Shown here: positions 14,501 to 17,500 of the stretch, in pieces
Layout: every line of letters begins with the position of its first letter
How positions within the stretch are numbered: the first letter of the stretch is position 1
NCBI RefSeq assembly: GCF_030384885.1
Contig: NZ_CP128613.1
Strand: one strand, 5' to 3'
From: Escherichia coli
GTDB lineage: Bacteria > Pseudomonadota > Gammaproteobacteria > Enterobacterales > Enterobacteriaceae
DNA: 64,000 nucleotides
Made by a program: the position numbers

Positions 14501-17500
14501 TCAACGGTTGCGTAATTAAGGGACACAGCCTAGTGTTATGTTTTACAGTAACACGCCGAGGCGTGTTGGCTGATTAGAACTGGTAGACTAAGCCCACAGC
14601 AACGATATCATCGGTAGCGATGCCGTTTGCTTCGTAGAAGTCATCATCGTTGTCCAGCAGGTTAATTTTGTAATCAACATAGGTGGACATATTTTTGTTG
14701 AAGTAGTAGGTCGCACCGACTTCAACGTATTTAACCAGATCTTTGTTAGTGTAACGCGGGTCGCCGTTGCCGTCATGAGCCCAGCCGCCTAAATCCTTAC
14801 CTTTAGATTGCAGGTAAGCGATGGACGGGCGCAGGCCGAAGTCGAACTGATACTGAGCAACAACTTCAAAGTTTTGGGTTTTGTTAGCGATGGCTGATCT
14901 TGATTCACCATTATCAAACTCGCCACCACCATATGGGGTCATATTGCGAGTTTCAGCGTACATAGCTGCTAAATACACATTATTAGCATCATATTTTGCA
15001 CCAACAGTCCATGCTTCAGCGGTTTCACCACCAGCATTTCTGTTGCTATGGTTACGATCATTTAAACCAACTCCAACCTGGCGATCTGAGCGATCAGAGT
15101 TTGAATATGCAGCACCCAGACTTAAACCGAAGTCGAAGTCGTAGGATGTAGACATACCGAAACCATCACCATTTTCTTTGGAAAGGCTACGGCCATCACC
15201 ACTACCGGAACCTTCCTGCCCGAAGGGGCCACCACTTTCATTATTACCCTGATATTGCAGAGCAAAGTTCAGACCATCAACCTGACCAAAGAAGCCATTG
15301 TTACGGTAGGTTGCAACGCCGTTGGTACGACCGTTCATGAAATTGTCGGCACCAGCATAGGTATCACCACCAAATTCTGGCAGCATATCGGTCCATGCTT
15401 CGATATCATATACGACACCGTAGTTACGACCATAGTCGAAAGTACCATTCTGACCAAAACCTAAACCTGCGAATGCCAGACGGGTAGCAGAGTTATCGCC
15501 ATCGCCTTCTGTGCCATTTGCCTGCAGGTTGTATTCCCACTGACCGTAACCAGTGAATTGATCAGCGATCTGAGTTTCACCTTTGAAACCGATACGAGCA
15601 TATGACATATCGCCATCAGCGCCCGAGTTGTCAGAGAAGTAGTGCAGACCTGCTACTTTTCCGTAGAAATCCAGTTTATTACCATCTTTATTATAGACTT
15701 CAGCCGCATTTGCTGCGCCAGCAACTAATAACGCCGGGACCAGCATTGCCAGAACTTTTCTTTTCATTATGTATTCCCTTGTGATTATAATCTTCATGAA
15801 TATATCAATAAGTGCCGTTATCCAAAAAAAAGCACATTTGGATACTATTCTATGAAGTTCATTTTATTTTAAGGATTACATGTAACAAATGTATTTAAAA
15901 GATTTCAAAATGTTTCCAATCTATTTAATATAATTCAGAATTATGAATTCTAGATATATACATTCATGAAAATTATGAATATATATCAATATGTTATGAG
16001 TTGATTGAAAAGATAGGAAGTGTCAATGATTTTTGCGCCAGACGGCCTATGTGATCGCGCGCACATTAATGAAGGCATAAAAAAAGCCGGCATCATGCCG
16101 GCCCAAAAAATATAAACAAGACGATAAAAGGCTAATAACGGGGTTATCATGACACAGAAATCTAAAAAGGTATAATTGTATTCAGTGCTAATGTATTTTT
16201 TGGGTGAATTAATAAAACCATTATCCAAGATAAAAATAAATCTTTATTGCTGTTTTTCCGGTAATTATTGCCGTTGCGCAAAAACTATCTATTTGCTCAA
16301 AAAATGATTGAGTCTTGACTGACTCATCCAATGTGGAAAAATGTGACTTTTATCACATAATAGTACTAAGTTTGAATTTTCCGGGTTATCTCAAAATGGA
16401 ATACGGTTCGACAAAGATGGAAGAGAGACTCTCTCGCAGCCCTGGCGGCAAATTGGCTTTGTGGGCTTTCTATACATGGTGTGGCTATTTCGTCTGGGCA
16501 ATGGCGCGATACATCTGGGTGATGAGCCGGATCCCCGATGCCCCCGTGTCGGGATTTGAAAGTGATTTAGGATCTACTGCGGGGAAGTGGTTAGGAGCAT
16601 TGGTCGGATTTCTGTTTATGGCCCTGGTTGGTGCCTTGCTAGGCGGCATTGCCTGGTACACCCGACCTCGTCCCGCACGTAGCAGACGCTATGAATAAAA
16701 ACTGCTAAGGTTGCGACTCTTTGGCAACGGAGCGCGTATGGATTTACAACACTGGCAGGCACAGTTCGAAAACTGGTTGAAAAACCATCATCAACATCAG
16801 GACGCGGCACATGACCTGTGTCATTTTCGCCGCGTCTGGGCTACGGCACAGAAACTAGCGGCAGATGACGACGTTGATATGCTGGTGATTTTAACCGCCT
16901 GTTATTTTCACGATATCGTGAGCCTGGCGAAAAATCATCCGCAACGGCAGCGTTCTTCAATACTGGCAGCAGAAGAGACGCGTCGCCTGCTGCGTGAAGA
17001 ATTCGCGCAATTTCCAGAGGAGAAAATTGAGGCTGTTTGCCATGCCATTGCCGCACACAGTTTTAGCGCGCAAATTGCCCCTTTAACGGTGGAAGCTAAA
17101 ATCGTACAGGATGCGGATCGGCTGGAAGCTCTGGGGGCGATTGGCCTGGCGCGTGTGTTTGCCGTTTCGGGGGCGTTGGGCGTGGCATTGTTTGATGGCG
17201 AAGATCCGTTCGCGCAGCATCGCCCACTTGATGATAAACGTTACGCGCTGGATCATTTTCAGACTAAGTTGCTGAAGCTACCGCACACCATGCAAACCAT
17301 AAAAGGCAAACAACTGGCGCAGTACAACGCGCAATTTTTAGTCGAGTTTATGGCGAAGCTCAGTGCCGAGCTGGCGGGAGAGAATGAAGGTATCGATCAC
17401 AAAGTGATTGATACGTTTTCACCGGTTGGCTGAGCGCGTGGCCCTAAATGATGGTAATTATGTTAACCTGTCGACCATCTCAGATGGCCGGTTAAATCTA

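What the first reader, a model, noticed from the sequence alone, without database searches (positions are those of the whole stretch)
15940..16110. Dyad-symmetric AT-rich motifs and an orphan minus-strand terminator hairpin between the porin gene and yedR
Upstream of yedS there is a perfect inverted repeat agaattATGaattct (15947-15961) and a palindromic ttcatgaa nearby, which suggests binding sites for a dimeric regulator. At 16086-16102 a GC-rich hairpin gccggcatcatgccggc is followed by a T-run only on the minus strand. No annotated minus-strand gene lies upstream of it, since yedR is on the plus strand. The 80-aa minus ORF spanning it (15986-16228) reads through the hairpin and is probably not coding. 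A small RNA is possible.
Basis: seen in the sequence. Interest (0 to 1): 0.25.

Follow-up and report, generated by a model that had tools for sequence, protein, structure and literature searches.

The report
Known RseX small RNA beside yedS
The "orphan" hairpin is the transcription terminator of RseX, a well-studied E. coli small regulatory RNA that sits just upstream of the yedS porin gene. The AT-rich palindromes next to it are ordinary for such DNA and are not conserved, so the finding is a rediscovery and not something new.

Summary
The window is E. coli and is 100% identical to strain 2013C-4282 over this region. The GC hairpin at 16086-16102 with its minus-strand T-run is real. It is the intrinsic terminator of the small RNA gene rseX (minus strand, 16079-16168). 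The match to Rfam RF01401 is full-length, 99.8 bits against a gathering score of 50. The position is the one K-12 annotates as rseX (b4603), between drpB (yedR) and yedS. PGAP does not annotate rseX in this strain, which is why the hairpin looked orphan. It is silenced by H-NS, depends on Hfq and represses ompA, ompC, fimB, ihfB and fepA. Its terminator loop is itself functional. The 80-aa ORF is not conserved.

The palindromes exist, though the first is at 15937-15951, not 15947-15961. They are not significantly enriched in this 28%-GC DNA (p about 0.07-0.14). They lie in one of the least conserved segments (65% identity across Escherichia lineages). Strong conservation begins at 15937 and runs to the yedS start codon. 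The genuine dyad sites for a dimeric regulator are two CRP sites, at 16050-16065 and 16342-16357. Both have published binding data at the orthologous positions.

The parts
16079..16168 (-). rseX small RNA gene (90 nt). The 5' end is UUUUUAGAUUUCUGUG.
   Evidence: Rfam RF01401, full-length match 1-94/94, 99.8 bits (gathering score 50), E=8.3e-14. It is 83/91 identical to K-12 rseX b4603 and lies in the same drpB-rseX-yedS synteny.
16079..16104 (-). rseX intrinsic terminator: stem-loop GGGCCGGCA-UGA-UGCCGGCUU followed by a U tract.
   Evidence: Terminator scan. The MFE fold gives a 9-bp stem; whole-RNA energy is -19.2 kcal/mol, z=-2.2. The stem is kept in 9/9 lineages, with one G-C to A-U compensatory change in Citrobacter. 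The loop is functionally required for fepA repression in K-12 (PMC11979758).
16175..16180 (-). rseX -10 hexamer TACAAT, at positions -12 to -7 relative to the transcription start at 16168. The -35 element is poor.
   Evidence: Read from the sequence. It is conserved in most Escherichia lineages. A sigma-70 promoter supported by 5' RACE is cited in PMC8313858. The assignment here is an inference.
16050..16065 (.). CRP site 1, TGTGATCGCGCGCACA (9/10 of the core). Its centre is 21.5 nt past the rseX 3' end and 290 nt upstream of the yedS ATG.
   Evidence: Pattern scan. The arms are invariant and the spacer varies across 8 Escherichia lineages. The orthologous K-12 site has Kd 4.9 nM in vitro (PMC12871828, Table 1, 2033766, 'yedS'; motif centre 2033760.5). 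An ETEC ChIP-seq peak lies at CGTGATCTCGCGCACA, assigned yedR/ETEC-specific (PMC4287617, Table 1).
15937..15951 (.).
   Evidence: It is present only in this lineage. Its zone is 65% identical among Escherichia.
15929..15952 (.). A larger imperfect dyad centred at 15940/15941, with core ATTCA-N6-TGAAT at 15933-15948. In K-12 this is a perfect 18-bp palindrome, AATTCATAATTATGAATT.
   Evidence: the repeat finder I3, the K-12 alignment and per-column conservation. The K-12 18-mer is rare in shuffles (p=0.006). The window version is 10/12 (p=0.07).
15963..15970 (.). TTCATGAA palindrome. Only the TGAAT part (minus strand 15966-15962) is invariant.
15877..15936 (-). Conserved 60-bp block of six 10-bp units: GAATTATATT, AAATAGATTG, GAAACATTTT, GAAATCTTTT, AAATACATTT, GTTACATGTA. 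They resemble the tandem OmpR half-sites of ompC and ompF.
   Evidence: Identity is 95% among Escherichia and 88% to Citrobacter for 15878-19. The block shares the 11-mer ACATTTTGAAA, plus GAAACAT and TACATTT, with the ompC C1 region. The OmpR assignment is an inference and the C1-C3 box limits are recalled from memory.
15847..15888 (-). Candidate yedS core promoters: TTGTTA(15888-83)-16-TAAAAT(15866-61), and an alternative -10 TAGAAT at 15852-15847.
   Evidence: Promoter scan and reading of the sequence. Identity is 96% among Escherichia. No transcription start data are available, so this is an inference.
15768..15846 (-). yedS 5' leader. It contains the stem TATCCAA/TTGGATA (15844-15819) and the second TTCATGAA (15793-15800).
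   Evidence: 98% identical among Escherichia and 87% to Citrobacter.
14574..15767 (-). yedS, an intact 397-aa OmpC-family porin. It is a pseudogene in K-12.
   Evidence: ORF list. Pfam Porin_1, E=6e-144. PGAP calls it 'porin OmpC'. K-12 yedS is flagged as a pseudogene.
16342..16357 (.). CRP site 2, TGTGACTTTTATCACA (10/10 of the core), inside the mapped drpB promoter interval.
   Evidence: It is conserved in all lineages including Citrobacter. Kd is 1.9 nM at K-12 2033477, labelled '(yedR)' (PMC12871828, Table 1; motif centre 2033467.5). [quoted passage not shown]
16396..16698 (+). drpB (yedR), 100 aa from the experimentally supported ATG.
   Evidence: and PMC7648144.

Best explanation
The interval covers the 3' half of the known small RNA gene rseX and the upstream control region of the quiescent porin gene yedS.

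rseX (minus strand, 16168 to 16079) is transcribed from a weak sigma-70 promoter with -10 TACAAT. That hairpin is a Rho-independent terminator and, with the U tail, the expected Hfq-binding 3' module. In K-12 the RNA is about 91 nt, is silenced by H-NS/StpA and is seen only when that silencing is lifted. When made, it represses ompA and ompC through Hfq, represses fimB and ihfB by base pairing, and represses fepA through its terminator loop. These functional steps come from the literature on K-12. They are inferred here from 91% identity, with the 3' 63 nt identical apart from one U.

The AT-rich DNA between the terminator and yedS is a regulatory region of the H-NS-bound type. Its conserved, functional-looking parts are a CRP site at 16050-16065, a 60-bp array of 10-bp-phased OmpR-like half-sites at 15936-15877, the core promoter and the leader. 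They are most likely by-products of low-complexity AT-rich sequence. One arm (TGAAT, 15937-15933) belongs to the conserved OmpR-like block.
For: RseX identity: Rfam RF01401 at 99.8 bits against a gathering score of 50, E=8e-14, full length. The curated K-12 record annotates rseX at the orthologous place. The pairwise alignment shows differences only at nt 7-9, four loop bases and one U. The same rseX, then 310-316 nt, then porin arrangement occurs in E. albertii, E. whittamii, two unnamed Escherichia species, two further E. coli and Citrobacter amalonaticus, and every rseX copy scores above the gathering score.

Terminator: (stem kept in 9/9 lineages, one compensatory pair).

Function, from the literature: H-NS repression and a Northern band of about 91 nt in a delta-hns strain, with 5' RACE support for the promoter (PMC8313858). 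The locus lies in an extended protein occupancy domain in 7 of 8 conditions (bioRxiv 10.1101/2024.06.20.599902). The terminator loop is needed for fepA repression and RseX+52 is sufficient (PMC11979758). The gene order yedS'<-rseX drpB-> is given in PMC7648144.

Dyads are ordinary: shuffle tests, 65% conservation and the exact motif in 1 of 9 lineages.

Conserved parts: segment identities, per-column footprints, CRP pattern with published binding (PMC12871828, PMC4287617), and motifs shared with ompC C1.
Against: No expression data exist for this strain, so transcription of rseX and termination at the hairpin are inferred by homology. The 5' region of this allele differs from K-12 at nt 7-9 and in the first loop, so targets of the 5' region (fimB, ihfB) could differ.

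For the dyads, the arms of ATTCA-N6-TGAAT are better conserved than the spacer. They are perfect in 5 of 8 Escherichia lineages and carry one mismatch in 2 more. The K-12 allele forms an 18-bp perfect palindrome that is rare in shuffles (p=0.006). A real operator there is therefore not excluded. OmpR binding to the 60-bp block is inferred from sequence resemblance only.
Confidence: 0.93

Rival explanations
1. The AT-rich dyads, especially ATTCA-N6-TGAAT at 15933-15948 with TGAAT and TCATA islands repeating about every 10-11 bp up to about 15998, are a genuine operator. The candidate regulator is a dimeric or tetrameric protein that counteracts H-NS at yedS. One possibility is a LysR-type protein such as LeuO, which activates the Salmonella quiescent porin ompS1. 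Another is an upstream extension of the OmpR array.
For: The arms are more conserved than the spacer, and invariant pentamers are spaced about 9-12 bp apart within otherwise variable DNA. The K-12 allele is a perfect 18-bp palindrome (p=0.006). The dyad fits the loose LysR-type T-N11-A pattern (read from the sequence). yedS is labelled ompS1 in PMC2731931 and 'outer membrane protein S1' in one source (P0108). LeuO antagonises H-NS at ompS1 in Salmonella (PMC4264507). Genomic SELEX for the LysR-type regulator PgrR lists a 'yedX/yedS' target (PMC5934670).
Against: The window's motifs are not significantly above chance. The right arm is shared with the conserved OmpR-like block, so its conservation needs no dyad. 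Orthology to Salmonella ompS1 and homology of the upstream regions were not tested. No binding data were found for this spot.
Confidence: 0.18
2. The hairpin is not a small RNA terminator. It would instead be a chance GC palindrome, a REP-like element, or a terminator for antisense or read-through transcription coming from the drpB side.
For: RseX is undetectable in wild-type K-12 under laboratory conditions (PMC8313858). PGAP annotates nothing here.
Against: There is a full-length covariance-model match including the 5' part. The whole 90 nt is conserved at 92%, against 63-77% for the flanks. A -10 element sits at the right distance. A ~91-nt RNA is seen in delta-hns cells, and a transcription start was mapped by 5' RACE (PMC8313858).
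Confidence: 0.02
3. The 80-aa minus-strand ORF (15986-16228), or the 31-aa plus-strand ORF (16020-16115), encodes a small protein.
For: Both are open reading frames in this strain.
Against: In the same frame, 8 of 8 other lineages carry early stops or frameshifts; for example, the extra T in K-12 shifts the frame. There is no Pfam match. The ORF runs through a promoter, a small RNA and a terminator.
Confidence: 0.01

Closest known systems
RseX small RNA of E. coli K-12 (rseX, b4603; Rfam RF01401)
   Same: Same gene. It has the same synteny (drpB / rseX / yedS), the same length class (90 against 91 nt), the same -10 TACAAT, the same 3' 63 nt including the terminator stem-loop, and a covariance-model score twice the gathering score.
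   Different: This allele differs at nt 7-9 (GAU against UUA), at four bases of the first hairpin loop, and has one fewer U in the tail. Here the downstream yedS is intact, whereas in K-12 it is a pseudogene.
Small RNA and porin neighbour pairs: micF-ompC and micC-ompN
   Same: A small RNA that represses other major porins sits next to a porin gene. RseX represses ompC and ompA and sits beside yedS. MicC and the quiescent porin OmpN are co-regulated (PMC5745476). micF lies upstream of ompC.
   Different: micF/ompC and micC/ompN are transcribed divergently. rseX and yedS are in tandem on the same strand, 311 nt apart, with a strong terminator and a CRP site between them. Co-regulation of rseX and yedS has not been shown.
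Salmonella ompS1 quiescent porin regulatory region (OmpR, H-NS/StpA, LeuO)
   Same: It is a silent OmpC-family porin with an AT-rich upstream region, OmpR-type boxes and H-NS silencing. yedS is labelled ompS1 in PMC2731931. LeuO antagonism of H-NS at ompS1 is reviewed in PMC4264507.
   Different: Orthology and upstream homology were not tested here because no Salmonella sequence was retrieved.
CRP operators (TGTGA-N6-TCACA)
   Same: The two sites match the consensus at 9/10 and 10/10, with conserved arms and variable spacers. The orthologous K-12 sites bind CRP at 4.9 and 1.9 nM, and the first is occupied in ETEC in vivo (PMC12871828, PMC4287617).
   Different: Site 1 lies about 200 nt upstream of the predicted yedS promoter and just after a terminator. 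That is not a canonical class I or class II position for any promoter identified here, and its regulatory output is unknown.

Membership tests
RseX (Rfam RF01401) | Covariance-model score at or above the curated gathering score over the full model | tested here: met
   99.8 bits against 50, model positions 1-94/94, E=8.3e-14.
RseX (Rfam RF01401) | Location between drpB (yedR) and yedS, on the same strand as yedS | tested here: met
   Window: yedS (-) 14574-15767, rseX (-) 16079-16168, drpB (+) 16396-16698. K-12: drpB (-), rseX (+), yedS (+). Seven further loci show the same arrangement.
RseX (Rfam RF01401) | Rho-independent terminator (GC stem plus U tract) at the 3' end | tested here: met
   The stem is kept in 9/9 lineages with one compensatory change.
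RseX (Rfam RF01401) | Own sigma-70 promoter with the transcription start at UUUUUA | tested here: inconclusive
   A -10 TACAAT lies at -12 to -7, but the -35 is poor. The transcription start is taken from the K-12 annotation and the 5' RACE cited in PMC8313858. There are no data for this strain.
RseX (Rfam RF01401) | [quoted passage not shown] | not testable with these tools
   Literature on K-12 only (PMC8313858, PMC11979758).
   p=0.14, 0.07 and 0.07 in dinucleotide shuffles of the spacer. TTCATGAA occurs 5 times in 64 kb against 1.8 expected.
   The exact repeat is in 1 of 9 lineages and its zone is 65% identical. The overlapping ATTCA-N6-TGAAT does better, at 5/8 perfect, so the rival explanation remains open.
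CRP binding site | Match to TGTGA-N6-TCACA with conserved arms | tested here: met
   9/10 at 16050-16065 and 10/10 at 16342-16357. These are 2 of the 4 matches in 64 kb, and both fall within this 630-bp intergenic region. Arms are invariant and spacers vary.
CRP binding site | Demonstrated CRP binding | not testable with these tools
   Published for the orthologous K-12 and ETEC sites (PMC12871828 Table 1; PMC4287617 Table 1; coordinates matched). Not shown for this strain.
OmpR-activated porin promoter (ompC/ompF type) | Three contiguous 20-bp OmpR sites (10-bp half-sites) ending next to the -35 region | tested here: inconclusive
   A 60-bp conserved block in 10-bp register lies at 15936-15877. 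It shares ACATTTTGAAA with ompC C1 (blastn-short E=0.02; conservation). No position weight matrix, transcription start or binding data were available.

The most novel reading that the evidence does not exclude
rseX and yedS form a conserved, jointly H-NS-silenced "porin replacement" cassette that is present from Citrobacter to Escherichia with a nearly fixed 310-316-nt spacing. The variable-spacer dyad ATTCA-N6-TGAAT and the 10-11-bp-phased TGAAT/TCATA islands (15933-15998), together with the CRP site just after the rseX terminator, would be an unmapped switch. The switch could be LeuO- or PgrR-like, or an extended OmpR array. It would turn on the alternative porin while RseX removes OmpC and OmpA.
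Probability: 0.15. Interest if true: 0.3.

Novelty: already known. Interest (0 to 1): 0.08.

Why it matters
Little new biology follows from this finding. The main value is practical. NCBI's automatic PGAP annotation leaves rseX out of this and apparently most E. coli genomes: none of the records listed for the intergenic search had a feature under the match. A sequence-only reader will therefore keep rediscovering it as an "orphan terminator".

The locus remains of moderate interest to specialists for four reasons. RseX's native inducing signal is still unknown. Its terminator loop has an unusual regulatory role. yedS is intact in many clinical strains and has been linked to carbapenem susceptibility (cited in PMC11267920). 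The two high-affinity CRP sites have no assigned function.

Tried and rejected
1. RNA duplex prediction of RseX (without its terminator) against the yedS leader and the K-12 ompC leader, with mononucleotide-shuffle controls. There was no significant signal: the fraction of shuffles at least as good was 0.87 and 0.69 for yedS, and 0.10 and 0.33 for ompC. RNA.duplexfold on long sequences is too crude, so no conclusion was drawn.

2. Attempts to read the primary Salmonella ompS1 papers failed because they are not held. Details of the mapped ompS1 sites were therefore not used as evidence.

3. A protein homology search with YedS, meant to retrieve a Salmonella OmpS1 orthologue, returned only Escherichia and Shigella entries among the 120 listed. 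Names included 'porin OmpC', 'outer membrane protein N', 'yedS' and 'outer membrane protein S1'. Orthology to ompS1 remains untested.

4. The second minus-strand hairpin plus T-run at 16309-16326 was considered as another terminator. It was rejected because the stem is weak (6 pairs, 3 G-C), the pairing is broken in K-12 and E. albertii, and it overlaps a plus-strand -35-like TTGACT.

5. A promoter using the perfect TTGACA at 16026-16021 (minus strand) downstream of CRP site 1 was considered. No acceptable -10 lies at 16-18 bp, and the -10 region is not conserved.

6. Lrp, IHF, FNR and Fur consensus sequences were compared by eye with the dyad zone, from memory. None fitted.
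Full report
**Where the window comes from.** The 626-bp intergenic stretch 15771-16396 is 100% identical to E. coli strain 2013C-4282 (NZ_CP027579). It is about 90% identical to K-12 and is present in 4,907 of 5,426 complete E. coli genomes. The gene order in the window is as follows:
- yedS, an intact 397-aa OmpC-family porin, minus strand, 14574-15767
- a 628-bp AT-rich intergenic region
- drpB (yedR), plus strand from 16396
- yedJ, dcm and vsr

**Checking the observation.** The hairpin GCCGGCATCATGCCGGC is at exactly 16086-16102. 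On the minus strand it is followed by seven T, and on the plus strand by no T-run. The terminator scan calls it as 9 pairs, 6 of them G-C, with a 3-nt loop. The inverted repeat AGAATTATGAATTCT exists, but at 15937-15951, ten bases to the left of the stated coordinates. TTCATGAA is at 15963-15970 and again at 15793-15800. The spacer between yedS and the hairpin is 27.9% GC. In dinucleotide-preserving shuffles of it, the number of perfect 6-bp-arm inverted repeats, the best 12+12 dyad and the number of 8-mer palindromes reach the observed values in 14%, 7% and 7% of trials. The dyads are real but not clearly more than AT-rich DNA gives by chance.

**What the hairpin is.** A scan of 14000-18000 against Rfam gives a full-length match to RF01401, the "rseX Hfq binding RNA". 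It lies on the minus strand at 16079-16168 and scores 99.8 bits against a gathering score of 50 (E=8e-14). The curated K-12 record annotates ncRNA rseX (b4603, 2033649-2033739) at exactly this place, between drpB and yedS and on the same strand as yedS. The PGAP annotation of the identical strain has nothing there, which explains why the terminator looked orphan.

The window allele is 83/91 identical to K-12 rseX. It differs at nt 7-9, at four bases of the first hairpin loop and by one U in the tail. The 3' 63 nt, including the terminator, are otherwise identical. The RNA folds with a 9-bp terminator stem, at -19.2 kcal/mol for the whole RNA and z=-2.2.

A pattern scan of one genome per species found rseX in E. 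albertii, E. whittamii, two unnamed Escherichia species, two more E. coli and Citrobacter amalonaticus. All copies score above the Rfam gathering score. In every case a yedS-type porin gene follows 310-316 nt later. The terminator stem is kept in all nine sequences, with one G-C to A-U compensatory change in Citrobacter.

**How it works (from the literature on K-12, inferred here by homology).**
- RseX is a ~91-nt RNA that represses ompA and ompC in an Hfq-dependent manner and was found as a multicopy suppressor of RseP essentiality.
- It is undetectable in wild-type cells and appears in hns mutants.
- Its sigma-70 promoter is supported by 5' RACE.
- It also represses fimB and ihfB (all of the above from PMC8313858).
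- The locus lies in an extended protein occupancy domain in 7 of 8 conditions (bioRxiv 10.1101/2024.06.20.599902).
- The 3' part alone (RseX+52) represses fepA, and this needs the terminator loop, Hfq and RNase E (PMC11979758).

In the window a -10 TACAAT sits at 16180-16175, at positions -12 to -7 from the start at 16168, with a poor -35. This is consistent with weak expression.

**The ORF.** The 80-aa minus-strand ORF (15986-16228) is broken by stops or frameshifts in all eight other lineages and has no Pfam match.

**The AT-rich region and the dyads.** I aligned nine lineages from drpB to yedS and measured identity by segment among the Escherichia lineages.

| Segment | Identity among Escherichia |
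|---|---|
| rseX | 92% |
| Spacer upstream of the rseX promoter | 63% |
| 16000-16047 | 65% |
| Block from 15936 to the yedS start codon | 95-98% (79-88% to Citrobacter from 15919 onward) |

The exact AGAATT-N3-AATTCT occurs only in the window lineage. In K-12 a single base change gives instead a perfect 18-bp palindrome, AATTCATAATTATGAATT, which is rare in shuffles (p=0.006).

Per-column counts show small invariant islands every 9-12 bp within the variable DNA: ATAAC, TGATAT, ATAA, TGAAT and TCATA. The overlapping dyad ATTCA-N6-TGAAT (15933-15948) keeps both arms perfectly in 5 of 8 Escherichia lineages while its spacer varies. Its right arm is the first five bases of the conserved block.

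That block (15936-15877) reads as six 10-bp units: GAATTATATT, AAATAGATTG, GAAACATTTT, GAAATCTTTT, AAATACATTT and GTTACATGTA. It shares the 11-mer ACATTTTGAAA, plus GAAACAT and TACATTT, with the OmpR C1 region of K-12 ompC. It ends at a promoter-like TTGTTA-16-TAAAAT, with an alternative -10 TAGAAT at 15852-15847.

I therefore read the region as an ompC/ompF-type OmpR-box array with its core promoter and a highly conserved leader. This reading is inference from sequence. A genuine operator at ATTCA-N6-TGAAT, for example for LeuO as at Salmonella ompS1 (PMC4264507; yedS is called ompS1 in PMC2731931), is kept as a rival at about 0.18.

**The real dimeric-regulator dyads.** Two matches to the CRP core TGTGA-N6-TCACA lie in this intergenic region. 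The other is at 16342-16357 (10/10), within the mapped drpB promoter interval. They are 2 of only 4 such matches in the 64-kb window. Their arms are invariant and their spacers vary among lineages.

The orthologous K-12 sites are listed as novel high-affinity CRP sites, with Kd 4.9 nM for "yedS" and 1.9 nM for "(yedR)" (PMC12871828, Table 1; coordinates matched). The first has a CRP ChIP-seq peak in ETEC H10407 (PMC4287617, Table 1). Their regulatory output is unknown. Site 1 is about 200 nt upstream of the predicted yedS promoter, which is not a canonical activation position for any promoter I could identify.

**Comparison with what is known, and novelty.** The hairpin and the small RNA are RseX itself. 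All sequence-testable membership features are met, and the expression features cannot be tested here. The arrangement resembles micF-ompC and micC-ompN, in which a small RNA that represses other porins sits next to a porin gene (PMC5745476). Here, however, the two genes are in tandem and not divergent. The finding is already known.

**Verdict.** Interest is 0.08. The most novel reading still open is an unmapped switch in 15933-15998 that, together with CRP, controls a co-silenced rseX-yedS porin-replacement cassette. I put its probability at about 0.15 and its interest, if true, at about 0.3.

Noticed in passing
window 16050-16065 and 16342-16357: Two CRP-consensus sites lie in one 630-bp intergenic region, with conserved arms and variable spacers. 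Published in vitro binding (K-12) and in vivo binding (ETEC) exists for the orthologous sites, but no regulatory function is assigned. Site 1 sits immediately after the rseX terminator and site 2 overlaps the drpB promoter interval.
   Followed up: yes
window 16149-16176 (+) and 16175-16180 (-): A near-consensus plus-strand promoter-like element, ATGACA-16-TATAAT (11/12), lies back-to-back with the rseX -10 TACAAT. The two -10 hexamers overlap by 2 bp, implying divergent starts about 15 bp apart (16168 minus, about 16183 plus). The plus-strand -35 lies inside the rseX 5' end. It might drive transcription toward drpB or compete with the rseX promoter.
   Followed up: partly
window 14574-15767 (-): yedS is an intact 397-aa porin here, while K-12 yedS is a pseudogene. 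PGAP names it 'porin OmpC', although it is the yedS paralogue and not ompC. This allele of the locus is rare: only 2 of 4,907 genomes are at least 99% identical over the intergenic region.
   Followed up: partly
window 13699-14519 (+) and L002 1907-2749: A frameshifted IS5-family transposase pseudogene and hypothetical genes lie directly downstream of yedS, where K-12 has hchA. The region beyond yedS has therefore been rearranged or replaced in this strain.
   Followed up: no
window 16309-16326 (-): A second terminator-like hairpin, TGAGTCAGTCAAGACTCA followed by a T-run, lies between drpB and the rseX promoter. The stem is weak, its pairing is not maintained in K-12 or E. albertii, and it overlaps a plus-strand TTGACT. 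It is probably not a terminator.
   Followed up: partly
window 15768-15853 (-): The yedS leader is 98% identical across Escherichia and 87% identical to Citrobacter. That is more conserved than rseX (92%) and than the first ~100 nt of the neighbouring drpB coding sequence (90%). It contains the stem TATCCAA/TTGGATA (15844-15819) and a second TTCATGAA 26 nt before the ATG. This suggests post-transcriptional control, for example a small RNA target site.
   Followed up: no
window 16396 vs 16417 (+): PGAP starts drpB at the ATG at 16417 (93 aa). The experimentally supported start (ATG-22 in PMC7648144) corresponds to 16396 (100 aa).
   Followed up: no
window 15771-16396: This yedS-yedR intergenic region is polymorphic enough among E. 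coli to have been used as a host-source biomarker locus (PMC11267920). That fits the 63-65% identity of its variable segments.
   Followed up: partly
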